A stretch of 64,000 nucleotides of DNA from Escherichia coli. Lineage in GTDB: Bacteria > Pseudomonadota > Gammaproteobacteria > Enterobacterales > Enterobacteriaceae. The notes beneath the pieces are model-generated. The model ran no database searches, was not told the DNA's origin, and was given only the letters and a program-made list of their open reading frames with translations. Each line of letters starts with the position of its first letter. Within the stretch, counting starts at the first letter, position 1. Shown here piece after piece: positions 14,809-57,466 of the stretch. The translations under genes were made by a program, and so were the position numbers. The DNA lies in the NCBI RefSeq assembly GCF_051903065.1, contig NZ_CP178438.1, one strand, 5' to 3'.

Positions 14809-14928
14809 ATGCCTGGCAGTTCCCTACTCTCGCATGGGGAGACCCCACACTACCATCGGCGCTACGGCGTTTCACTTCTGAGTTCGGCATGGGGTCAGGT
14901 GGGACCACCGCGCTACGGCCGCCAGGCA
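14809..14928 (-). rRNA. rrfG: 5S ribosomal RNA
   Basis: 120 nt, reverse complement of TGCCTGGCGGCC...CTGCCAGGCAT. Confidence 0.97.
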
Positions 14929-15021
14929 AATTCTGTTTTATCAGACCGCTTCTGCGTTCTGATTTAATCTGTATCAGGCTGAAAATCTTCTCTCAATCCG
15001 CCAAAACAGCTTCGGCGTTGT

Positions 15022-17923
<2,902 letters not shown>

Positions 17924-18107
17924 TCACAACCCGAAGATGTTTCACTTCAGAGTTGCGAAAATTTGAGAGACTCACGAACAACTTTCGTTGTTCAGTGTTT
18001 CAATTTTCAGCTTGATCCAGATTTTTAAAGAGCAAATATCTCAAACATCACCCGAAGATGAGTTTTGAGATATTGAGGTCGGCGACTTTCACTCACAAAC
18101 CAGCAAG

Positions 18108-18183
18108 TGGCGTCCCCTAGGGGATTCGAACCCCTGTTACCGCCGTGAAAGGGCGGTGTCCTGGGCCTCTAGACGAAGGGGAC
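18108..18183 (-). tRNA. gltW: tRNA-Glu (UUC) in the 16S-23S spacer
   Basis: 76 nt, reverse complement of GTCCCCTTCGTCTAGAGG...GGGGACGCCA. Confidence 0.97.
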
Positions 18184-18268
18184 GTATCAGTCTGCTTCGC
18201 AAGACGCCTTGCTTTTCACTTTCTATCAGACAATCTGTGTGAGCACTGCAAAGCACAGTTCTTTAAGG

Positions 18269-19810
<1,542 letters not shown>

Positions 19811-20253: not shown

Positions 20254-22827
20254 TTACTGGACGGCGACAATCCGGTCTTCATTAACTTCCAGGCGAATCA
20301 CTTTACCCGGAACCAATTCACCAGACAGTATTTGCTGTGCCAGCGGGTTTTCGATCTGCTGCTGAATTGCACGTTTCAGAGGACGTGCACCATAGACCGG
20401 ATCGTAACCGTTCTCGCTCAGTAGTTTCAGCGCCTCGTCAGAAATGTGGATTTCATAACCACGTTCTTCCAGACGTTTATACAGACGTTTCAACTGAATC
20501 TGCGCAATCGACGCAATGTGCTGTTCACCCAGCGGATGGAAGACCACCACTTCATCGATACGGTTAATGAATTCCGGACGGAAGTTATGGCTAACCACAC
20601 CGAGCACCAGCTCTTTCATGTGCGCATAATCCAGTTCACCGAAGCGTTCCTGAATCAGATCGGAACCGAGGTTAGAGGTCATAATGACAACCGTATTACG
20701 GAAGTCGACCGTTCTCCCCTGCCCGTCAGTCAGACGCCCATCATCCAGTACCTGCAACAGAATATTGAAGACATCCGGATGCGCTTTTTCCACTTCATCC
20801 AGCAGGATGACGGAATACGGACGACGACGCACAGCTTCGGTCAGGTAGCCACCTTCTTCATAACCGACATATCCCGGAGGCGCACCAACCAGACGAGACA
20901 CCGAGTGTTTCTCCATAAACTCGGACATATCGATACGGACCATCGCCTCGTCGCTATCAAACATAAAGTTCGCCAGCGCCTTACAAAGCTCTGTTTTCCC
21001 CACACCAGTTGGGCCGAGGAACAGGAATGAACCAATCGGGCGATTTGGATCCGCCAGCCCCGCACGGCTACGACGAATAGCGTTAGATACCGCATCAACC
21101 GCTTCGTTCTGACCAATTACGCGATGGTGCAGTTCTTGCTCCATACGCAGCAGTTTTTCGCGCTCGCTTTCCATCATGCGAGAAACCGGAATCCCCGTCC
21201 AACGCGCCAGCACTTCAGCAATTTCGGCGTCGGTCACTTTATTACGCAACAGACGCATAGTTTTGCCTTCGAGCTGCGTTGCGGCTTCCAGTTGCTTTTC
21301 CAGTTCCGGGATTTTGCCGTATTGCAGTTCAGACATCCGCGCCAGGTCCCCCACACGGCGAGCCTGTTCAATAGCGATTTTCGCCTGTTCCAGTTCCGCT
21401 TTAATGGTCTGCGTACCAGAAAGCGATGCCTTCTCTGCTTTCCACTCTTCTTCTAACTCGGAGTACTGACGTTCTTTGTCGCTCAGTTCTTCGTTGAGCA
21501 TATCCAGGCGTTTTTTACTGGCTTCATCAGACTCTTTCATTAACGCCTGTTGTTCCAGTTTGAGCTGGATGATACGACGATCGAGTCGGTCGAGTTCTTC
21601 TGGTTTTGAGTCAATCTGCATACGAATGCTGGATGCTGCTTCATCGATCAGGTCGATGGCTTTATCCGGCAGCTGACGGTCAGCAATGTAGCGATGAGAC
21701 AACGTCGCCGCTGCAACAATTGCCGGGTCAGTAATTTGCACATGGTGGTGCAATTCGTAACGTTCTTTCAGGCCACGCAGAATCGCAATGGTATCTTCAA
21801 CAGAAGGCTCGGCAACAAACACTTTCTGGAAACGACGTTCCAGCGCAGCATCTTTTTCGATGTACTGGCGATATTCGTCAAGCGTCGTGGCACCTACGCA
21901 GTGCAATTCACCACGCGCCAGCGCCGGTTTCAGCATGTTTCCGGCGTCCATTGCGCCATCGGCTTTACCCGCGCCGACCATGGTATGTAATTCGTCGATA
22001 AACAGGATGACGTTGCCTTCCTGTTTGGCAAGATCGTTAAGCACGCCTTTTAAACGTTCTTCAAACTCACCGCGATATTTCGCCCCAGCCACCAGCGCGC
22101 CCATATCCAGCGCCAGTACCCGGCGGCCTTTCAACCCTTCCGGCACTTCGCCGTTGATAATACGCTGCGCCAGACCTTCAACGATGGCAGTTTTACCGAC
22201 GCCGGGTTCACCAATCAGTACCGGGTTATTTTTAGTACGACGTTGCAGCACCTGAATGGTACGGCGAATTTCTTCATCACGACCAATCACCGGATCGAGT
22301 TTGCCCTGTTCGGCTCGTTCGGTAAGGTCGATGGTATATTTTTTCAAAGCCTGACGTTGGTCTTCAGCACCTTGATCGTTCACGCTTTCACCTCCACGCA
22401 TTTGTTCAATCGCTTGAGTAATGTTGGCGGTGGTCGCCCCTGCTGCTTTCAGGATGTCGGCCAGCGTGCCGCGAGACTCAAGTGCCGCCAGAACGAACAG
22501 TTCTGACGAGATAAAGTTATCACCACGTTTTTGCGCCAGCTTGTCGCAAAGATTAAGAACGCGCACCAGATCCTGTGATGGCTGGACATCACCACCAGTA
22601 CCTTCAACCTGCGGTAAACGATTTAATGCCTGATTGATATCTGTGCGCAACTGGCCAGCATTTATGCCAGCTGATGTTAACAAAGGACTAACCGAACCCC
22701 CTTCCTGATTCAGCAGGGCGCTCATTAAATGAAGTGGTTCGATGAATTGGTTGTCGTGCCCGAGTGCAAGTGATTGGGCATCGGCAAGAGCAAGCTGGAA
22801 TTTATTAGTAAGACGATCCAGACGCAT
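20254..22827 (-). CDS. clpB: ClpB disaggregase (Hsp100)
   Basis: 857 aa from ATG at 22827 ([10 protein letters not shown]...); two AAA+ modules with Walker A GEPGVGKT and GPTGVGKT. Confidence 0.96.
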
Positions 22828-22956
22828 AACTCCTCCCATAACGGATCAAAGTTGCTACTGGAGATTAAATGAGGTCATCCCTCAATTATTCAAGGTTATT
22901 GACCAGATTAATGTGAAAAGAAAATCACGCGTACCGGATCGTCTTGATTCTTTAGG

Positions 22957-26149: not shown

Positions 26150-26252
26150 TCCTTTATATTGAGTGTATCGCCAACGCGCCTTCGGGCGCGTTTTTTGTTG
26201 ACAGCGTGAAAACAGTACGGGTACTGTACTAAAGTCACTTAAGGAAACAAAC

Positions 26253-26300
26253 ATGAAACACACACCGTTTTTCTTCGCATTCTTTTTTACCTTCCCCTGA
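26253..26300 (+). CDS. pheL: pheA leader peptide (Phe-rich, 15 aa)
   Basis: MKHTPFFFAFFFTFP, seven Phe codons, directly upstream of pheA. Confidence 0.9.
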   Translation: MKHTPFFFAFFFTFP

Positions 26301-26347
26301 ATGGGAGGCGTTTCGTCGTGTGAAACAGAATGCGAAGACGAACAATA

Positions 26348-26377
26348 AGGCCTCCCAAATCGGGGGGCCTTTTTTAT
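26348..26377 (+). terminator. pheA attenuator terminator
   Basis: Hairpin AGGCCTCCC...GGGGGGCCT followed by TTTTTTAT between pheL and pheA. Confidence 0.8.
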
Positions 26378-44135: not shown

Positions 44136-44498
44136 GGGGCTGATTCTGGATTCGACGGGATTTGCGAAACCCAAGGTGCATGCCGAGGGGCGGTTGGCCT
44201 CGTAAAAAGCCGCAAAAAATAGTCGCAAACGACGAAAACTACGCTTTAGCAGCTTAATAACCTGCTTAGAGCCCTCTCTCCCTAGCCTCCGCTCTTAGGA
44301 CGGGGATCAAGAGAGGTCAAACCCAAAAGAGATCGCGTGGAAGCCCTGCCTGGGGTTGAAGCGTTAAAACTTAATCAGGCTAGTTTGTTAGTGGCGTGTC
44401 CGTCCGCAGCTGGCAAGCGAATGTAAAGACTGACTAAGCATGTAGTACCGAGGATGTAGGAATTTCGGACGCGGGTTCAACTCCCGCCAGCTCCACCA
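44136..44498 (+). ncRNA. ssrA: tmRNA (transfer-messenger RNA)
   Basis: 363 nt from GGGGCTGATTCTGGATTCGACGGG to ...GGTTCAACTCCCGCCAGCTCCACCA; tag-ORF region present. Confidence 0.97.
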
Positions 44499-45417: not shown

Positions 45418-46518
45418 TTATTCCATTTCAAGATCATCAATCTTCACTTCGAGTTCAATACTGGTTGTAAAACCGTTATCCGGGCTGACGGTATGTGTCA
45501 GAGTCGTAATGGTCCATTCCGCATCATCTATCGGCTGTTTAAAGCCACTGACTTTCACTGGCATTTCCGTGTAGAGATCTGCCCGACCTTCCGCCAGTTG
45601 TAGCGAGAATGACGCAACGCCGCGTTGCAGGCGTTCCCACTGCATTTTCGCTGCCCGTTCAGCGTTGCTCCGGTTGGCATAAGTGCGATTAAGTACCAGC
45701 ACGTTTTCATCCGTACCCACCAGGTAATCGCCCTGCTTTGCTTCCGGCTCTTTCTTCTGCTTTGCGGTCCTGCGCTTACGCTTCACCGTGGTGCTTTCTT
45801 TCTTCGCGGGTTCGCGGGTATGCAACCAACTGGCAATTACGCCCGTATAGGCTCCGCGATCTGCCAGGGTAAAGCGGTGACTGTCGCCGTCCTTGCGTGT
45901 GATAGTGATCACCGGCAGAGGTTTACCGCTGGCGCTTTTGCCCTGTCCCTGCCGGATGAATAACAGATTGCCATTTTTCACCGACGCAATAGCACCGTAC
46001 TGGCGCGCCAGCCGCATCAGAAAACTGCCGTCACTCTCATTGGTCTGGTCTATATGTTCCACGGGCTTATCCGACAGGTCTTTACCCAGTGCCATCTTCA
46101 GCTTGTGCCGCGCGGCTATTTCCTTCACCACTTCCCCGACGGTGGTCTTGTGCCACGACTTTTCACGACGGGTATTCAGCGTTTCCCGAAAATCAGCACT
46201 TCGCGCCCGGATAGTCAGGCGGTCCGGTGCGCCAGTGTGTTCAATCTCGTCCACCGTGAATGCCCCTTTAGGGAAAAGCGGCTGCCCCTTCCAGCCCAGC
46301 GCCAGCGTAATGACCGCACCACGGCGCGGCAGCACGATTTTTCCGTCGGCGTCGTCCAGCTCCAGATCAAGCTGGTCCGCTTCAAAGCCCCGATTGTCCG
46401 TCAGAGTCAAACTCATCAGGCGGTTATCCAGCACAGTGGTGATATCCCTGCCCTCAATACTGATGCTGAATGCGGGAGTTTTGTTGCCTTTGTTAAGCAG
46501 TTCAGAGCTGAAATTCAC
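45418..46518 (-). CDS. D: tail protein D (P2 gpD-like)
   Basis: 366 aa at the position downstream of U; overlapping stop/start with U. Confidence 0.8.
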   Translation of the reverse strand: MNFSSELLNKGNKTPAFSISIEGRDITTVLDNRLMSLTLTDNRGFEADQLDLELDDADGKIVLPRRGAVITLALGWKGQPLFPKGAFTVDEIEHTGAPDRLTIRARSADFRETLNTRREKSWHKTTVGEVVKEIAARHKLKMALGKDLSDKPVEHIDQTNESDGSFLMRLARQYGAIASVKNGNLLFIRQGQGKSASGKPLPVITITRKDGDSHRFTLADRGAYTGVIASWLHTREPAKKESTTVKRKRRTAKQKKEPEAKQGDYLVGTDENVLVLNRTYANRSNAERAAKMQWERLQRGVASFSLQLAEGRADLYTEMPVKVSGFKQPIDDAEWTITTLTHTVSPDNGFTTSIELEVKIDDLEME

Positions 46519-51082: not shown

Positions 51083-52255
51083 TTACGCGCTGACCTGGCT
51101 GGAGAAATTCACCAGGTACTGATCGGTGATGCGCTGACGCAGCATCAGGTTTTCAAGTGGCGGCACTGGCGTGTAGTCGTAGTCGATGGTGAGTTTTCCG
51201 GCTTTCAGCGTGTCTTTGTCGTTCACCGACTCATCCAGCCAGCAATCACCACCAATGAGATAGCCCTGACTGACCAGGCTGCGCATTTTGGCGCGGATAC
51301 CCTCGATAATGTCGCGGGCCAGCGACGGATTCAGCGGTTTATCCACCGCCCACATGTGCGCTTCTGCCATCGTGTCCGTCAGCACCTGCGCCGTGCGGGT
51401 GTAGTTTTCGAAGGCAAAGAGCGGGTCATCACTCAGGCAGCGGGAACCCCAGAAGCGAAAACCGTCTTTGCGGATAAGGGTGGTGACGTCGTTCTGGTTC
51501 AGCAGTCCCGCATCGGTTGCCGGGTCCTGCAGATCCCAGAACACATCAGCAGAAATTCCGGTGACACCGTTAACGCCCACGTTGGACAGGCTTTTGTGCC
51601 ATCCGGTCTGCTCGTCAATTTTGGCGCGCAGACCAAGCGCACGGGCGGTGGCATAAGCCGTTGCTTCGGCATTCAGCACCGTGTCCCAGCCAGTAAAGTC
51701 GGGCCAGATCAGCATTCCTTCGCGCTGGCTGAAGTTTTCACGGTAAGTGATCGCCTCCTGTACCGTCTTGCAGCCATACGCTGACAGGTAGGCAAACCCA
51801 CGCAGGCTTTGCGCCACGCTCAGCAACTCAGTAGCAACGGCTTTGTTATCGTGACCTGGCACGCCGAGAATGCGCGGTTTAACGCCGAGCTGTGTCTGGG
51901 CAGATAACAGGGCTTTCATGCCTGTTTTTTTACCTTCAGCAGTCACTGCGCCGATGATATTGGTCGTGGTTTCTTCTTCCGTTTCACCCTGCGGCACACG
52001 CACAACAACGGTCACTGGTTTTGCCTGGTCAGCGATGGCATCCAGCGAACGGGCCAGCGTGCCGGACTCACCCGCTTTACCGCTGGCAGTCAGCACATCA
52101 GTGATCAGCACGGGTTTATTAAGAGGAAACATTTTTGCATCGGCATCATCGCCCGTGCAGACCATACCCACGATGGCGGTGCTCACCGTGGTAATGGATC
52201 GGGTGCCTTCGTTGACTTCAGCAACGCGCACCCCGTGGTGGTAATCCTGAGCCAT
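51083..52255 (-). CDS. FI: contractile tail sheath protein (P2 gpFI-like)
   Basis: 390 aa, sheath-like sequence, first gene of the FI-FII-E-T-U-D operon. Confidence 0.88.
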
Positions 52256-52397: not shown

Positions 52398-52964
52398 TCA
52401 GGGCGATTCATTGCTCTCATTCGCCGGAAATTTTCTATAAATGGTAGAAACGCCCACATCAAAAATCAGTGCAATACGCTGTCTTGATTCTCCGGCCTCG
52501 AGTAAACGTCCAATCTGTGCCCACTGTTCGGTGGTCAACTTAGGACGGCGTCCACCTACTCTGCCTTTGGCACGAGCTGCAGCCAGCCCTGCTCTGGTAC
52601 GTTCAACTATCAGTTCACGTTCCATTTCAGCCAGAGCCCCCATGACGTGAAAAAAGAAACGGCCCATTGGGGTACTGGTATCAATACTGTCAGTCAGGCT
52701 TCGGAAATTCACACCACGCTGGCGCAACTCTTCTATCAGCGTAACAAGATGCCGCATACTGCGCCCCAGTCTATCCAGCTTCCAGACAACCAGCGTGTCT
52801 CCTGCCGATAGTGTCCTGAGCAGTTTTTTAAGCCCCGGTCTGTCGGACTTAGTGCCACTGATTTTATCCTCAAAAATCCGCTCACATCCCGCGCAGTTCA
52901 GTGCATTACGTTGCAAATCGGTGTTCTGGTCATTTGTTGACACGCGTACATAGCCAATAAGCAT
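52398..52964 (-). CDS. serine DNA invertase (Hin/Gin/Pin family)
   Basis: 188 aa from ATG at 52964: MLIGYVRVSTNDQNTDLQ... with catalytic Ser region and C-terminal HTH (GVSTIYRKF); ORF-track upstream extension rejected. Confidence 0.9.
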   Translation of the reverse strand: MLIGYVRVSTNDQNTDLQRNALNCAGCERIFEDKISGTKSDRPGLKKLLRTLSAGDTLVVWKLDRLGRSMRHLVTLIEELRQRGVNFRSLTDSIDTSTPMGRFFFHVMGALAEMERELIVERTRAGLAAARAKGRVGGRRPKLTTEQWAQIGRLLEAGESRQRIALIFDVGVSTIYRKFPANESNESP

Positions 52965-53019
52965 GATCAATCCCCTGAATAAAAACCGGGGATGATGCCA
53001 GTTAGCCATTATCTCTGCA

Positions 53020-53045
53020 TTTTCTTAAACGTTGGTTTGGGAGAA
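53020..53045. repeat. hix/gix-like 26-bp inversion site (left)
   Basis: TTTTCTTAAACG-TT-GGTTTGGGAGAA; bottom strand reads TTCTCCCAAACC-AA-CGTTTAAGAAAA; shares 14 bp with the right site in inverted orientation. Confidence 0.75.
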
Positions 53046-53468
53046 GGTTCGGCATTACCCGTTGGTGTGCCTGTTCCGTGGCCTTCTGCAATACCGCCTA
53101 CTGGCTGGCTGAAATGTAACGGTGCGGCTTTTTCTGCCGTTGAATATCCTAAACTGGCGAGGGTTTACCCGACAAATAAATTACCTGATTTACGCGGTGA
53201 GTTTATTCGTGGCTGGGATGATGGGCGTGGAGTGGATAGTGGGCGCGCGTTATTATCAACTCAAACAGATGAATTTAAATCACATAGTCATTATTTCGAA
53301 AGAACATGGGCACAAACTGGATTTGATACAACAGGTGGATATTATCTTTTAGCCGCTGATGTTTCTGGCTCAGTAAATCAACAGAGATCCGATAGCACTA
53401 ACTCGGTGGGGGGGAGAGAATCTCGCCCTCGTAATATTGCATTTAACTATATTGTGAGAGCTGTGTAA
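53033..53468 (+). CDS. alternative tail-fibre C-terminal segment, promoterless in this orientation
   Basis: Frame continuous through the left site; encodes GLGEGSALPVGVPVPWP...LPDLRG...SHSHYF...NIAFNYIVRAV, the P2 gpH-type C-terminal pattern. Confidence 0.75.
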
Positions 53469-54073
53469 TGGATAATGCTGTATTAAATAGCGAACATATT
53501 GCTACGAAGGCTGGAAATGTTACTGTTTATAACTTTGACGGTGAAACGCGAGAGTATATTTCCCCATCTATTGAATATATTGCCGTTGGTGTCGGTATTC
53601 CGGCATATTCATGTTTAGATGCTCCTGCCACACGTAAAGATGGTTATGCTATTTGCCGTTCTGCAGGCTTAAACTCATGGGAATATATACCAGACCATCG
53701 CAGTGAAATTGTCTATAGCACTGAAACAGGAGAATCAAAAGAAATCACAGCTCTGGGGGATTACCCTGAAAATACAACCATTATCGCCCCATTAACGCCA
53801 TACGATAAATGGGATGGTGAGAAATGGGTGACGGATACCGAGGCACAGCGTAGCGCCGCAGTAGACGCGGCAGAAGCACAGCGCCAGTCGCTGATTGATG
53901 CTGCTATGGCTTCCATTAGCCTGCTTCAACTGAAATTACAGGCCGGACGGAAGCTGACGCAAGCAGAAACAACCCGACTAAACGCCGTGCTGGATTACAT
54001 TGACGCGGTGATGGCAACGGATACCAGCAACGCGCCGGGGGTTATCTGGCCAGTTCCACCTGAGATGGTTTAA
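53468..54073 (+). CDS. tail-fibre assembly chaperone (Tfa/gpG-like) for the alternative fibre segment
   Basis: 201 aa, start overlaps upstream stop (TAATG); C-terminal pattern ...TDTSNAPGVIWPVPPEMV typical of Tfa proteins. Confidence 0.8.
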   Translation: MDNAVLNSEHIATKAGNVTVYNFDGETREYISPSIEYIAVGVGIPAYSCLDAPATRKDGYAICRSAGLNSWEYIPDHRSEIVYSTETGESKEITALGDYPENTTIIAPLTPYDKWDGEKWVTDTEAQRSAAVDAAEAQRQSLIDAAMASISLLQLKLQAGRKLTQAETTRLNAVLDYIDAVMATDTSNAPGVIWPVPPEMV

Positions 54074-54225
54074 TCTCAATCAGAATGGGTTCGCCCTTCT
54101 CGTTAACAGATATTTCCATTCCTTCAGGGATTTCAGATGCAGTAAAAAACCAGTTATCTTCTGGTAATTCAACAGCCCCGGTCACGTCATGAAGACCGGG
54201 GATTACTTCAGTCAAAGTAACAGGA
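54042..54225 (-). CDS. short ORF downstream of H (possible truncated or non-canonical Tfa); uncertain
   Basis: Only about 61 codons are open after the H stop in this frame and no ATG with a clear RBS is present; the track's 95-aa ORF overlaps H. Confidence 0.25.
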
Positions 54226-55617
54226 TTAAACAGGCGCACAATAAACTCTCCAAGAAAAAGCACTTGTTGATGGTCTTCCGTCGTACATCTGGCAGCGGAC
54301 ATAAAAACCGGTATTAGTGACCTGGTCATCCACGATCATTGAAACGTGAACGTTATTAGATGTGCTCCCGTAATCCGTTCTTATTCTTTCCGCTATGCTG
54401 ATAAAACGTGAAAGCTTAGGTAGCGCAATTGGATAAACGACTTTAGCCAGTCCATTATCATTAGAACCACCCGTTCCAAAGACTTCTATTGCACCATCTG
54501 ACCAGCGTATCCATGCACCATTGGCATTAGCTCCTCGTTGAATGACATATCTGGCTTCTCCCAAACCAAGGTATGCGAGAAGACCAGCTACATCCTTTCC
54601 ACTCAAATTGGTAAGCGTATTGTCCAGCGGTTGTTTACCTGCCAGCGCATTAAGCATTGTCGTGGCAAAGTTCGGATCATTCCCCAGTGCCGCCGCCAGT
54701 TCGTTCAGTGTATCCAGTGCCGCAGGTGCAGAACCCACCATTGCTGCAATCGCTGATTTCACAAAAGCCGTGGTGGCAATCTGTGTATTGTTGACCGACT
54801 GTGCCGCAGTAGGTGCGGTTGGCGTTCCGGTGAGTGCCGGACTCGACAGCGGCGCTTTCAGTGCCAGTGCATTGTTAATGGTGGTACTGAATTTCGGATC
54901 ATTGTTAATGGCTGCGGCTATTTCTTTCAGCGTGTCCAGCGTGGCTGGCGCACCATTAATAAGAGCCGTCAGAGCCGCCTGAACAAACGCGGTGGTCGCA
55001 ATCTGCGTGGTGTTATTCCCTGCTGCTGGCGTTGGCGCTTTGGGTGTCCCGGTAAACGTCGGACTTTCTTTGGGTGCATACTGTGAATGCGGGTCCGGTG
55101 CGGCAAGATGTTTTGCCATCTGATCATCCGCGTACACCTTCAGCTCCAGTGCCTTGTCATCCACATACTTGCGGGTTGCCAGCACTACAGCAGGGTCGAT
55201 TTTCAGGGTGATATTGTCCGTGCTGCTGGTAATCAGCACCATGCGCACGGTCTGAGTGCGCCCGCTACCTTCAGCCAGTTGCGGCTTATAGCTTTCCGGG
55301 CAGTTGCCCACGGCAATCAATGCCTCGGACTCATCAAACAGGCCCACTTCACGAATCCACCAACCGCCCTCGTTTTCAGGGATCACCTGTTCGGCAATAA
55401 TCTGGCTGCTGTTCTGCGGGTCGATATAGAGCATATTCAGCGCAGCCCGGCGTTTCTCATTTACCAGTGCAGTCTGCTTTGAGTCTGGCGTTGGCAATAC
55501 TCCGCCGCCATCGCCGACCGCCATATGGGTAATTTTTAGCGGCACACCGAGCGCGGCGGCGCTGGCAAGTTTCGCCGCGCCAATATCCGTCAGCAGGGTA
55601 TAAAATTTTGTGCTCAT
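54226..55617 (-). CDS. H: tail fibre protein (P2 gpH-like), currently expressed variant
   Basis: 463 aa; conserved N-terminal part, two about 70-aa Ala/Thr-rich repeats, junction ...AYLGLGEA at the right inversion site, then a distinct C-terminal domain ending YCAPV. Confidence 0.88.
   Translation of the reverse strand: MSTKFYTLLTDIGAAKLASAAALGVPLKITHMAVGDGGGVLPTPDSKQTALVNEKRRAALNMLYIDPQNSSQIIAEQVIPENEGGWWIREVGLFDESEALIAVGNCPESYKPQLAEGSGRTQTVRMVLITSSTDNITLKIDPAVVLATRKYVDDKALELKVYADDQMAKHLAAPDPHSQYAPKESPTFTGTPKAPTPAAGNNTTQIATTAFVQAALTALINGAPATLDTLKEIAAAINNDPKFSTTINNALALKAPLSSPALTGTPTAPTAAQSVNNTQIATTAFVKSAIAAMVGSAPAALDTLNELAAALGNDPNFATTMLNALAGKQPLDNTLTNLSGKDVAGLLAYLGLGEARYVIQRGANANGAWIRWSDGAIEVFGTGGSNDNGLAKVVYPIALPKLSRFISIAERIRTDYGSTSNNVHVSMIVDDQVTNTGFYVRCQMYDGRPSTSAFSWRVYCAPV
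54546..54571. repeat. hix/gix-like 26-bp inversion site (right), inside H
   Basis: TTCTCCCAAACC-AA-GGTATGCGAGAA; 12-bp imperfect inverted half-sites around a central AA, close to hixL as recalled. Confidence 0.75.
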
Positions 55618-56219
55618 GGATTCACTCTCATTGTGTCAATAACATGGACCGCCCCGCCTTCATGCGCGGTGCCGCCAGAAATAATTGTTTCGTTGATATA
55701 CGGATAGATCGTGATTTCTTCGCCAAGATAGCTGGCGGCTCCCACCCAATGCGGGCCGCTGGTCTGCAGATTGATGGACATGCCGATCATGTGGCGGCTA
55801 CATGGTTTGGCATCGCTTATCAGTCGCTCAAGTTCCAGATAGGTATCTTCAGTGATGCCCTGGTCCTGCACGCCGATATCCAGGCGAAACGTGCCCGGAG
55901 CCTCTCCGGTCTGCCACCACTCAATAATGCGGATCAGGAATCCGAACGGTTCCACCACCCGCCGCACGGCACTGGTGGTTCCTTTATGCTGATGAATATA
56001 AAAAGCATCCTTCACTACCTGGCGTTTGACGCTTTCTGTCCAGCCCTCGTCCCAGCGATCCACAGAGAACGCCCAGGCGAGATAAGGCAGGAAGCTGACC
56101 GGGCAGGTAGCCGGATTCCACAAGTCACGCAGCGGCACCTGCAGATCAGAAATCCCGCTACAGGTTTGCGCCAGTCGGCGCTCCAGTGAAGTTGAACCCG
56201 GTGGCAGCAGACTATTCAT
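55614..56219 (-). CDS. I: baseplate protein I (P2 gpI-like)
   Basis: 201 aa between J and H, overlapping start/stop on both sides. Confidence 0.8.
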   Translation of the reverse strand: MNSLLPPGSTSLERRLAQTCSGISDLQVPLRDLWNPATCPVSFLPYLAWAFSVDRWDEGWTESVKRQVVKDAFYIHQHKGTTSAVRRVVEPFGFLIRIIEWWQTGEAPGTFRLDIGVQDQGITEDTYLELERLISDAKPCSRHMIGMSINLQTSGPHWVGAASYLGEEITIYPYINETIISGGTAHEGGAVHVIDTMRVNP

Positions 56220-57120
56220 CCGTTCCTCCGTTGGTTACGCTCCACTGCGTACATGATGCCGCCTGTGTTTTGTTCAGGACCACATCCGCCAGAGGAGAAG
56301 CCAGCTCCACACGCTGCACACCCTCAACATGCAGGGCGGCAAAGATGGCGCTACGGCGAATATCCCGACCAAGACGCGTCTGACTGGCGATGTACTTCTG
56401 CAGGCTGGCTTTTGCCGCTGCCATTACCGGCTCTGCTTCCGGTCCCGGATAGAGAAAAATGGTGGCTTCCACGCGATACGGGATGATTTCTGCGCTGCGA
56501 ACCGTCAGACGGTCAGCCACCGGGCGGACGTTCTCACTGTTCAGAGCTTTTTCCACCACGTCCAGCAGGTCTTTTTCTGCAGTTCCATCGCCTTCGCGGC
56601 TAAGGACAGTCAGCACCACCTCTGCAGGTGCCGGGCTGGTTGCACTGGCATCCGCCACCCGACCGTCGGCGCTTCGGGCATGAAATTCATAAGCTGCAGT
56701 TGGCCCCGCAACAGAAAGCCCTTCAAAGGCTGCAGGCACACGCAGGCGTAACGCTTCATCGCTTTCCATCACAGCTGCAACGGGCGGCACAGCATCATTA
56801 TCAGCAGGCGTCACCGTCAGGCGTGTCACGTTGTAGTTGGCAGCGAGCTGGTCAAGATCGCCGCCCATCGCGTAAGCCACCATCACCGCCTGCGCGGCTT
56901 CGTTAATGCGCTGGCGCAGAAGCAACTCACGGTAAGCGTTCTCCTGCAACAATTTAGTGACGGGTTCAGATTCCAGTTCCAGCGTTCGGATCACGGCTTC
57001 CTGCTCATCTTTCGGATGAAGCGCCACAAATTCTGCCTTGCGTTCGGCAAGCAGCGTCTCAAAGTCCGGCACATCCACAATCTGCGGTGCAGGCAACTGC
57101 GAAAGGTCAATCACTGCCAT
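56212..57120 (-). CDS. J: baseplate protein J (P2 gpJ-like)
   Basis: 302 aa from ATG at 57120 (MAVIDLSQLPAPQIV...), matches the gpJ sequence pattern recalled for P2. Confidence 0.88.
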   Translation of the reverse strand: MAVIDLSQLPAPQIVDVPDFETLLAERKAEFVALHPKDEQEAVIRTLELESEPVTKLLQENAYRELLLRQRINEAAQAVMVAYAMGGDLDQLAANYNVTRLTVTPADNDAVPPVAAVMESDEALRLRVPAAFEGLSVAGPTAAYEFHARSADGRVADASATSPAPAEVVLTVLSREGDGTAEKDLLDVVEKALNSENVRPVADRLTVRSAEIIPYRVEATIFLYPGPEAEPVMAAAKASLQKYIASQTRLGRDIRRSAIFAALHVEGVQRVELASPLADVVLNKTQAASCTQWSVTNGGTDE

Positions 57121-57466
57121 TCTCTGCTCCTGTTGATACGGAAAGGGACACAGGCACACCGTTATTCCGCCGCCCGGTCAGCTCCACCACCATAGAACCG
57201 TCAAAGTTGCTGTTGATGGTGATGGAATCCAGCGTCAGCCGTGGCTCCCAGCGACTCAGCGCCACATACACTGCCGACATGACCTGCAGGCGTAATGCCG
57301 GATTTTGTGGCTGATCTATTAAAACCGACAGGAGGGAACCATATTCCCGGCGGGCAATACGGCTACCCTGCGGTGTCAGCAGAATGTCCCGCACCGACTG
57401 GCGCAGATGATCAATATCAGTAATGACTTTGCCGCTGGTATTGTTCATCCCGCTATAAAGCGTCAT
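57107..57466 (-). CDS. W: baseplate protein W (P2 gpW-like)
   Basis: About 115-119 aa, motif SRWEPRLTL; position between V and J. Confidence 0.85.
   Translation of the reverse strand: MTLYSGMNNTSGKVITDIDHLRQSVRDILLTPQGSRIARREYGSLLSVLIDQPQNPALRLQVMSAVYVALSRWEPRLTLDSITINSNFDGSMVVELTGRRNNGVPVSLSVSTGAENGSD

What the first reader, a model, noticed from the sequence alone, without database searches (positions are those of the whole stretch)
54640..55070. Tandem duplication of an about 70-aa Ala/Thr-rich module inside tail fibre H
Two consecutive units (TGTPKAPTPAAGNNTTQIATTAFVQAALTAL...DTLKEIAAAINNDPKFSTTINNALALKAPL and TGTPTAPTAAQSVNNTQIATTAFVKSAIAAM...DTLNELAAALGNDPNFATTMLNALAGKQPL) form a DNA-level direct repeat of about 200 bp. 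Such repeats set fibre shaft length and are recombination-prone.
Basis: seen in the sequence. Interest (0 to 1): 0.3.

Follow-up and report, generated by a model that had tools for sequence, protein, structure and literature searches.

The report
Two-copy shaft module in tail fibre
A P2-like prophage tail-fibre gene carries two old, diverged tandem copies of a very common 74-amino-acid fibre-shaft building block; related prophages carry one to four copies, so this is an ordinary, already familiar kind of feature.

Summary
The repeat is real, but as a protein repeat rather than a strong DNA repeat. The gene at 54226-55617 (minus strand, 463 aa) is a P2 gpH-type tail fibre. It holds two ungapped 74-aa units: aa 185-258 (window 55065-54844) and aa 259-332 (54843-54622). 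They are 61-63% identical in protein (blastp E=6e-29) but only 60% in DNA. Third codon positions match at 32%, synonymous sites are saturated (pS 0.71), the longest exact run is 11 nt, and TRF and megablast find nothing. So the duplication is ancient and both copies are under purifying selection.

The unit is a ubiquitous phage-fibre module: 46,621 cluster representatives match it, in arrays of up to 10-12 units, yet no Pfam or NCBIfam model covers it. It splits into two halves, A and B, that also occur alone. P2 gpH has one unit.

Close relatives have 1, 2 (dominant), 3 or 4 units. Their chimeric units switch at the small islands of u1/u2 similarity, including near-reciprocal 1-copy and 3-copy products. 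This supports "recombination-prone, variable length" on an evolutionary scale. That copy number sets shaft length is inferred, because structure prediction failed.

The repeat lies in the constant part of the gene, just upstream of an invertase-driven switch of the C-terminal domain. Ordinary; low interest.

The parts
54226..55617 (-). Tail-fibre gene (P2 gpH type), 463 aa plus stop
   Evidence: ORF. PF12571 at aa 1-150, E=2.8e-64. 53% identical to P2 gpH over aa 1-332. phrog_327 and others, 'tail fiber protein'.
55168..55617 (-). N-terminal baseplate-attachment domain (aa 1-150)
   Evidence: PF12571 Phage_tail_fib, full-length match 1-150/150.
54844..55065 (-). Unit 1 (u1, 'internal' type), aa 185-258: SPTFTGTPKAPT...NNALALKAPLS
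   Evidence: Module profile score 113.7, E=1e-36. Self-match at offset 74.
54622..54843 (-). Unit 2 (u2, 'terminal' type), aa 259-332: SPALTGTPTAPT...NALAGKQPLD
   Evidence: Module profile score 111.9, E=4e-36. 81% identical to the single unit of P2 gpH.
54983..55014 (-). Best-conserved nucleotide island in u1 (encodes NNTTQIATTAFV). Relatives' chimeric units switch here.
   Evidence: 32 nt, 81% identical to 54761-54792. Switch points at unit columns 69-78 in L001 and L003.
54761..54792 (-). Partner island in u2 (encodes NNTQIATTAFV)
54555..54581 (.). Right crossover site of the invertible segment, inside the gene (encodes ...LAYLGLGE), 41 nt downstream of unit 2
   Evidence: 27-nt inverted repeat, 81% complementary to 53020-53046. 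Homology with most relatives ends at gene nt 1063-1064, which is window position about 54555.
53020..53046 (.). Left crossover site of the invertible segment
54229..54554 (-). Variable C-terminal (receptor-binding) part now in frame with the constant part, about aa 355-463
   Evidence: Only 33 of 1500 matching E. coli genomes share it, whereas most share nt 1-1063.
52992..53468 (+). Alternative C-terminal exon (Collar domain). It would be fused after GLGE by inversion.
   Evidence: PF07484, E=2e-14. The same ...LGLGEGSALPVGVPVPWPS... tail follows the units in P0090 and P0001.
53468..54073 (+). Tail-fibre assembly chaperone for the alternative exon
   Evidence: PF02413, E=1.5e-30. phrog_105.
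52398..53009 (-). Serine invertase (Gin/Cin/Pin type)
   Evidence: PF00239 E=3e-53 and PF02796 E=2e-15.

Best explanation
The two units are paralogous, in-frame tandem copies of an ancient 74-aa fibre-shaft module. They lie in the constant (baseplate-proximal) part of a P2 gpH-type trimeric tail fibre.

Each module has two halves:
- Half A is Pro/Thr-rich: SPxFTGxPxAPT....N.TQIATTAFV.
- Half B is APxxLDTLxELAxAlgnDPnFxtT..naLa.KaPL and is predicted helical at low confidence.
The two halves also occur on their own in other fibres.

The two copies are differentiated. u1 is an 'internal' type ending in KAPLS. u2 is a 'terminal' type ending in GKQPLD, and it leads into the linker and the invertase crossover site.

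Shown:
- The duplication is old: synonymous sites are saturated and dN/dS is about 0.15.
- The arrangement (u1)n-u2 exists with n=0 to 3 in close relatives.
- The variants carry chimeric units whose junctions lie in the few short islands of u1/u2 similarity. This is the footprint of rare in-register unequal (homeologous or microhomology-guided) recombination or slippage.

Inferred:
- Each added module lengthens the rod between the baseplate-binding N-terminal domain and the switchable receptor-binding tip.
- It does so without disturbing either end, because every junction is in frame and at a unit boundary.
For: Repeat statistics.

Gene identity.

Module distribution:
- 46,621 cluster representatives at E<=1e-3 and 19,181 at <=1e-10, with up to 10-12 full units per protein.
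- Half A and half B occur independently: A-only arrays of up to 23, B-only arrays of up to 6. The commonest spacing between successive half-A starts is 74 aa.
- The two-unit region hits 32 different tail-fibre PHROGs.

Copy number:
- P2 gpH has one unit.
- Architectures among the 120 closest clusters: 102 u1|u2; 5 u1|u1|u2; 3 u1|chimera|u2; 1 u1|u1|u1|u2; 1 single chimera.
- In an evenly spaced sample of 60 E. coli complete-genome hits, 37 have 2 units, 5 have 1 unit (record span shorter by exactly 222 nt) and none has 3.

DNA junction mapping:
- L001, 1 copy: u1 to u2 switch at unit columns 69-75.
- L003, 3 copies: u2 to u1 switch at columns 75-78, close to reciprocal.
- L004: switch at columns 135-141.
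- L006 and L007: switch at about columns 192-205.
- L005: a 222-bp duplicate of u1 with dS=0.

The same u1-type/u2-type cassette occurs in fibres that lack PF12571: P0278 with gp37_C and P0292 with Gp34_trimer.

One structural hint: half A matches the tail fibre gp24 of cyanophage A4 (PDB 9K09) at residues 158-187 and 194-223. [quoted passage not shown]
Against: - No reliable 3D model was obtained: AF2 monomer pLDDT 55, linker pseudo-trimer pLDDT 28. The link between copy number and shaft length is therefore not demonstrated.
- Whether u1 arose by duplication in situ or was imported as part of a pre-formed u1-u2 cassette cannot be decided. The cassette is shared with unrelated fibres.
- u1 and u2 share no exact run above 11 nt. 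The mechanism that made the chimeras (RecA, phage recombinase, or template switching) is unknown.
- Copy-number frequencies come from a ranked list of 120 clusters and a 60-row sample, not a census.
Confidence: 0.85

Rival explanations
1. A recent DNA-level tandem duplication: a true 222-bp direct repeat that is an active recombination and slippage hotspot in this prophage.
For: The period is exactly 222 nt and in frame. One relative (L005) does carry such a fresh duplicate, with dS=0 between its units 1 and 2.
Against: In this window the copies are 60% identical, with codon position 3 at 32%, pS=0.71 and a longest exact run of 11 nt. TRF and megablast find nothing. The u1/u2 split is shared by hundreds of genomes and by unrelated fibre genes.
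Confidence: 0.04
2. There is no true repeat. Two Ala/Thr-rich low-complexity stretches merely resemble each other by composition.
For: A+T makes up 38-39% of residues. Pfam and NCBIfam have no model for the region.
Against: There is ungapped 61% identity with conserved non-A/T residues (P, G, N, D, F, L, K). blastp with composition-based statistics gives E=5.7e-29. The nucleotide identity is about 11 SD above the in-frame background. The module profile finds tens of thousands of fibres of the same 73-74 aa length.
Confidence: 0.01
3. The two units were not duplicated in this gene lineage. A ready-made (u1)n-u2 cassette was acquired by mosaic exchange with other tail-fibre genes, and the copy-number differences among relatives reflect cassette swapping rather than intragenic unequal crossover.
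For: u1-type and u2-type units that are 80-85% identical to the window's occur in the same order in fibres with unrelated N-termini and domains (P0278, P0292). P2 gpH has only the u2-type. Relatives show mosaic breakpoints at aa ~153 and at the crossover site.
Against: The near-reciprocal chimeras are what intragenic unequal exchange predicts: u1N/u2C as a single unit, and u2N/u1C as the middle of three, both within nearly identical flanks. So is the dS=0 duplicate in L005. The two processes are not mutually exclusive.
Confidence: 0.3

Closest known systems
Bacteriophage P2 tail fibre gpH (NP_046775, 669 aa)
   Same: Same PF12571 N-terminal domain and same gene neighbourhood (J, I, H, fibre assembly, then sheath). 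53% identity over aa 1-332. Contains the same module, 81% identical to u2, ending in GKQP.D and followed by TLT.LAG.
   Different: P2 has one module, preceded by two PF03406-type repeats (the PF03406 assignment is from my knowledge of the sequence and was not scanned here). The window has two modules and no PF03406 match. P2 has no invertase and a fixed C-terminus followed by gene G. The window's C-terminus is switchable.
Invertible tail-fibre systems: Mu G segment (S/U, S'/U', Gin), P1 C segment (Cin), e14 P segment (Pin), p15B Min
   Same: A serine invertase adjoins a segment bounded by ~27-nt inverted crossover sites. One site lies inside the fibre gene, so a constant N-terminal part is joined to alternative C-termini, each with its own chaperone. 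Family knowledge is from the established literature.
   Different: This is context for the repeat, not the repeat itself. The inversion was not observed here. The segment is carried by a P2-like prophage rather than a Mu- or P1-like one.
Mosaic sequence motifs shared among tail fibres of unrelated phages (P2 H, Mu S, P1 S, lambda Stf, T4 gp37/gp34), as described by Haggard-Ljungquist et al. 1992 and Sandmeier 1994 (recalled from memory, not read here)
   Same: The module occurs in fibres with gp37_C, Gp34_trimer, PF03406, PF12571 or other ends, and in 32 PHROG families.
   Different: I found no curated family (Pfam, NCBIfam) for this 74-aa A+B unit. In the searchable library I found no paper describing its copy-number variation.
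Pfam PF03406 Phage_fiber_2 ('phage tail fibre repeat', ~42 aa)
   Same: It is also a short repeat of phage fibre shafts, and it often lies next to this module (P0240, P0278).
   Different: It is a different sequence family. The window's protein does not match it even at E<=10.

Membership tests
P2 gpH-type tail fibre | N-terminal 'phage tail-collar fibre' domain (PF12571) | tested here: met
   aa 1-150, full-length match, E=2.8e-64, 216 bits against a cut-off of 23.
P2 gpH-type tail fibre | Sequence similarity to P2 gpH itself | tested here: met
   blastp 53% identity over aa 1-332, E=2e-90.
P2 gpH-type tail fibre | Position in a P2-type tail gene cluster (V, W, J, I, H, fibre assembly, then sheath FI and tube FII) | tested here: met
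   gpI (PF09684) lies immediately upstream at 55614-56219. A 315-aa ORF at 56212-57159 sits where relatives' loci have the baseplate J gene (PF26776, PF26078, PF26079); the window ORF itself was not scanned. A 390-aa ORF at 51083-52255 sits where relatives have the sheath gene.
P2 gpH-type tail fibre | Forms a homotrimeric fibre on the baseplate | not testable with these tools
   Only single-chain AF2 was available. Both attempts gave low confidence.
Invertible (Gin/Cin/Pin-type) tail-fibre switch | Adjacent serine recombinase with a resolvase catalytic domain and an HTH domain | tested here: met
   52398-53009: PF00239 E=3e-53 and PF02796 E=2e-15.
Invertible (Gin/Cin/Pin-type) tail-fibre switch | Inverted crossover sites, one of them inside the fibre gene, flanking alternative C-terminal exons and chaperones | tested here: met
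   53020-53046 / 54555-54581, 27 nt, 81% complementary. The Collar-domain exon and the Caudo_TAP gene lie in the opposite orientation. Relatives' homology ends at the site.
Invertible (Gin/Cin/Pin-type) tail-fibre switch | Both orientations actually occur | tested here: inconclusive
   Relatives carry the other C-terminus fused after GLGE (P0090, P0001). Inversion within one strain was not examined.
Tandem DNA repeat (VNTR-like, slippage-prone) | High nucleotide identity between adjacent copies, detectable by tandem-repeat finders | tested here: not met
   TRF finds nothing. 60% identity with a longest exact run of 11 nt. megablast gives no hit.
74-aa A+B fibre-shaft module (uncurated family defined here by profile A1) | Full-length match to the 73-position profile, with unit length 73-74 aa | tested here: met
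   Both units match positions 1-73, E about 1e-36. The profile was seeded with these two units, so this is partly circular. The independent support is the 46,621 other proteins matched and P2 gpH.
Pfam PF03406 Phage_fiber_2 repeat | Match to the PF03406 HMM | tested here: not met
   Not listed for the whole protein at E<=0.01, nor for the units at E<=10.

The most novel reading that the evidence does not exclude
The number of 74-aa modules may be an evolvable length dial for P2-like and many other phage fibres. In-register chimeric recombination between internal-type and terminal-type units would add or remove one rod segment at a time. In some relatives the invertase would swap in a C-terminal exon that brings a third module. 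Fibre reach would then be tuned to the thickness of the host's O-antigen or capsule layer. On this reading the module is a ubiquitous structural fold with no curated family (at least 46,000 protein clusters match it), and only parts of it have been seen in solved structures.
Probability: 0.2. Interest if true: 0.4.

Novelty: already known. Interest (0 to 1): 0.18.

Why it matters
Its importance is mostly practical.

- **Annotation:** the module is one of the commonest building blocks of phage fibres, yet Pfam and NCBIfam lack a model for it. Such shafts therefore stay unannotated or attract spurious hits (for example Acyl-CoA_ox_N).
- **Engineering:** the natural 1- to 4-unit variants and their junctions show where a P2-type fibre or tailocin fibre can be lengthened, shortened or grafted in frame.
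- **Biology of this locus:** it changes nothing. This is a standard P2-like prophage fibre that is 95-98% identical to many database proteins.

Tried and rejected
1. **AF2 model of aa 176-353 with a 23-sequence alignment.** pLDDT was 55.
2. **Pseudo-trimer made by joining three copies with GGS linkers.** pLDDT was 28. Neither model is fit for fold search, so no fold search was run.
3. **Counting chimeric junctions in E. coli genomes with 150-nt junction queries.** This was invalid. The tool joins non-colinear pieces from normal 2-copy genes into one 'place', so the '>=80% covered' counts are meaningless. Only single-piece hits count, such as H59 (NZ_CP143627).
4. **Idea that the 74-aa unit is itself 2 x 37 aa** (self-score 50 at offset 37). 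On the 10-sequence alignment z=1.5, with 381 of 5000 permutations as good. Rejected.
5. **The search for homologous proteins with the two-unit region alone.** It returned mostly short fragments and did not help with copy number.
6. **Solved-structure leads.** The 80alpha FibU (6V8I) match falls in a part of the protein that was not modelled. 9D93 is the Bxb1 tail tip, and I could not read how its gp4 region folds.
7. **Literature searches.** Searches for peptide strings and for fibre repeat or length variation returned nothing usable.
8. **Pfam and NCBIfam scans at permissive thresholds.** They gave only sub-threshold chance hits: Acyl-CoA_ox_N, HTH_3, DprA_N.

Full report
**1. What is at the coordinates**

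The finding lies in a minus-strand ORF, 54226..55617, of 463 aa. Both quoted peptide strings are in its translation. The protein has a full-length PF12571 'phage tail-collar fibre protein, N-terminal' domain at aa 1-150 (E=2.8e-64).

Its neighbours fit a P2-type tail cluster:
- A P2 gpI homologue (PF09684) lies directly upstream.
- 315-aa and 390-aa ORFs sit where relatives' loci have the baseplate J and tail-sheath genes.
- It is 53% identical to bacteriophage P2 gpH over aa 1-332.
- Proteins 95-98% identical over its full length are common in E. coli and Salmonella, where they are annotated 'phage tail protein' or 'variable tail fibre protein'.

'Tail fibre H' is therefore correct.

**2. Is the repeat real?**

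Yes, at protein level.
- A self-comparison gives one outstanding diagonal at offset 74 aa: ungapped BLOSUM62 score 241, aa 181-259 versus 255-333. The next best offset scores 50.
- Identity is 48/79 (61%).
- blastp with composition-based statistics gives E=5.7e-29 for the 74-aa units.
- I define unit 1 (u1) as aa 185-258, window 55065..54844, and unit 2 (u2) as aa 259-332, window 54843..54622.
- Ala plus Thr make up 38-39% of residues. The conserved Pro, Gly, Asn, Asp, Phe, Leu and Lys positions rule out a purely compositional match.

At DNA level the picture differs.
- The units are 60% identical over 237 nt, against 27 +/- 3% for other in-frame offsets. The similarity is therefore significant.
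- Codon positions 1, 2 and 3 match at 68%, 80% and 32%.
- Conserved residues use the same codon 21 times out of 48, against 17.8 expected.
- The longest exact run is 11 nt.
- Nei-Gojobori gives pS=0.71 (dS about 2.2, saturated) and dN=0.33.
- Tandem Repeats Finder reports nothing. The repeat finder reports only a 32-nt block at 81%. megablast finds nothing, and blastn finds 91 nt at 67%.

This is an ancient duplication maintained by purifying selection on both copies. It is not a 200-bp DNA direct repeat.

**3. What the unit is**

No Pfam or NCBIfam model covers it, even at permissive thresholds or in proteins with ten copies.

I built a profile from ten diverse units (A1).
- It matches 46,621 representatives (E<=1e-3) of 1.84 billion 50%-identity clusters, and 19,181 at E<=1e-10. 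Arrays reach 10-12 full units.
- Unit length is fixed at 73-74 aa in 341 of 347 full-length units from the first 240 proteins fetched.
- The unit splits into two halves. Half A is SPxFTGxPxAPT....N.TQIATTAFV, about 31 aa. Half B is APxxLDTLxELAxAlgnDPnFxtT..naLa.KaPL, about 43 aa.
- The halves occur in (AB)n arrays, A-only arrays (up to 23), B-only arrays (up to 6) and mixtures. The commonest spacing between successive half-A starts is 74 aa, then 39 aa.
- The window's two-unit region hits 32 different tail-fibre PHROGs.
- The whole 64-kb window contains only these two copies.

Sequence matches to solved structures are partial.
- Half B matches mycobacteriophage Bxb1 'tail collar fibers gp4' (9D93, E=8e-14) and staphylococcal phage 80alpha FibU (6V8I). 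The matched part of FibU was not modelled.
- Half A matches the tail fibre gp24 of cyanopodophage A4 (9K09) at residues 158-187 and 194-223. [quoted passage not shown]
- AF2 on the single chain gave pLDDT 55. A linker-joined pseudo-trimer gave pLDDT 28.

I therefore have no trustworthy model. The weak consensus is an extended Pro/Thr-rich stretch followed by short helices.

**4.

P2 gpH has exactly one unit (aa 256-327). It is 81% identical to u2 and 57% to u1.

Architectures among the 120 closest 90%-identity clusters:

| Architecture | Clusters |
|---|---|
| u1, u2 | 102 |
| u1, u2, plus a third divergent unit in the variable C-terminal part | 7 |
| u1, u1, u2 | 5 |
| u1, chimera, u2 | 3 |
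| u1, u1, u1, u2 | 1 |
| single chimeric unit | 1 |
| anomalous 768-aa protein (u1, u2, u1, u2) | 1 |

I also took an evenly spaced sample of 60 of the 1,477 E. coli complete-genome records that match the region. Of these, 37 have two units, 5 have one unit and none has three. In the five one-unit records the matched span is shorter by exactly 222 nt, and they belong to a lineage 82-86% identical in DNA. The other 18 rows are short partial matches.

I fetched the DNA of the variants and scored every site that distinguishes u1 from u2.

| Locus | Units | Pattern | Switch point (unit columns) |
|---|---|---|---|
| L001 | 1 | u1 to u2 | 69-75 |
| L003 | 3 | middle unit u2 to u1 | 75-78 |
| L004 (complete genome CP182004) | 3 | middle unit u2 to u1 | 135-141 (LDTL codons) |
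| L006, L007 (L006 = E. coli O55:H7 USDA5905) | 1 | u1 to u2 | about 192-205 (NALA codons) |
| L005 | 3 | u1 duplicated, dS=0 between copies | none |

- The L001 and L003 junctions are close to reciprocal. Both fall in the 32-nt island that encodes NNTQIATTAFV.
- A u1N/u2C single unit and a u2N/u1C middle unit are exactly the two products expected from unequal exchange between u1 and u2.
- All junctions sit in the few islands of local similarity.

The statement 'recombination-prone' therefore holds on an evolutionary scale. The events must be rare, because the two-unit form dominates and its copies share no exact run above 11 nt.

**5. Differentiated copies and origin**

Variants always keep a u2-type unit last and vary the number of u1-type units.

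The same order recurs in fibres without PF12571. Their u1-type and u2-type units are 80-85% identical to the window's. Examples are P0278, with PF03406 repeats and gp37_C, and P0292, with Gp34_trimer and a Gly-rich domain.

So u1 (ending KAPLS) behaves as an internal unit. u2 (ending GKQPLD, followed by TLTxLSG) behaves as a terminal unit leading to the distal part. The u1/u2 split predates this gene lineage. Whether the pair arose here by duplication or arrived as a cassette cannot be settled with these data.

**6.

The repeat ends 41 nt upstream of a 27-nt crossover site (54555-54581). Its inverted partner is at 53020-53046.

Several elements lie between or beside these sites:
- the current variable C-terminus (aa ~355-463);
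- in the opposite orientation, an alternative Collar-domain exon (52992-53468) with its Caudo_TAP chaperone (53468-54073);
- a serine invertase (52398-53009).

Homology with most relatives stops at gene nt 1063-1064, which is this site. The units thus belong to the constant shaft onto which alternative receptor-binding tips are switched, as in the Mu G, P1 C and e14 P segments (established knowledge).

**7. Mechanism**

Shown:
- two paralogous in-frame modules under purifying selection;
- modular copy-number variation with chimeric junctions;
- a position between the baseplate-binding domain and the switchable tip.

Inferred:
- Each module is a self-contained trimerising rod segment.
- Copy number therefore sets the distance between baseplate and tip. 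This mirrors what repeat number does in other viral fibres (general knowledge, not tested here).

**8. Verdict**

This is a correct but over-stated observation of an ordinary feature. The gene and its repeat are present, nearly identical, in hundreds of sequenced enterobacteria. Repeated, mosaic shaft motifs in tail fibres are long known. Two modest by-products remain:
- a clean natural series of 1-4-unit variants with mapped junctions;
- the recognition that this very common 74-aa module has no curated family.

Interest is low (about 0.2).

Noticed in passing
window 53020-54581 (with the invertase at 52398-53009): A complete Gin/Cin/Pin-type invertible tail-fibre segment. It has 27-nt inverted crossover sites and two alternative C-terminal exons. 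The exon now out of frame has a Collar domain and its own Caudo_TAP chaperone.
   Followed up: partly
window 52398-53009 (-): The invertase ORF as listed is 203 aa and starts 15 codons upstream of MLIGYVRVST. Relatives' genes are called at 188 aa, so the true start is probably the ATG at 52964.
   Followed up: no
window 54042-54329 (-): A 95-aa ORF that overlaps the last 104 nt of the fibre gene in another frame, and also the 3' end of the convergent chaperone gene. It has no Pfam hit but matches phrog_5400 (unknown function, E=3.5e-22). It may be a small chaperone for the currently expressed C-terminal domain. Relatives have a 65-aa gene called here.
   Followed up: partly
window 44136-44498 (+), and onward to at least 63541: The tmRNA gene ssrA (tag ANDENYALAA) lies about 0.9-2 kb from the nearest large ORFs of what appears to be the prophage's tail-gene block. 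The first of these ORFs, at 45418-46518, is of unscanned function. ssrA is a classic integration site for P2- and P4-like elements. The att sites and the other prophage end were not mapped.
   Followed up: no
window 14811-19810, 22808-22946, 26252-26377: An rRNA operon (5S, 23S, tRNA-Glu, 16S), the RyfD sRNA and the Phe leader. This is an enterobacterial chromosomal backbone, consistent with an E. coli-like host.
   Followed up: no
P0105-P0112 (543-aa relatives, 98% identical in the constant part): Their variable C-terminal part starts with a third, divergent copy of the module (aa 361-434). In those prophages DNA inversion would change the number of shaft modules as well as the tip.
   Followed up: partly
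P0001 (768 aa, Salmonella Typhi, named 'Gifsy-2 prophage tail fiber protein'): Its architecture is u1, u2, then a restart at 'MPNNTTQ...' with u1 and u2 again, followed by the Collar-type tail. It looks like a fusion or a duplicated segment, or an annotation or assembly artefact.
   Followed up: no
L005:3553-3996 (E. coli JBIHJZ010000001.1): Units 1 and 2 there are a fresh 222-bp duplicate (dS=0, with two amino-acid differences).
   Followed up: yes
module profile A1 against Pfam and NCBIfam: A fibre module found in 46,621 cluster representatives has no curated model. In the precomputed annotations its helix-rich half draws faint hits to Acyl-CoA_ox_N (PF14749), which could mislead automated annotation.
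   Followed up: partly
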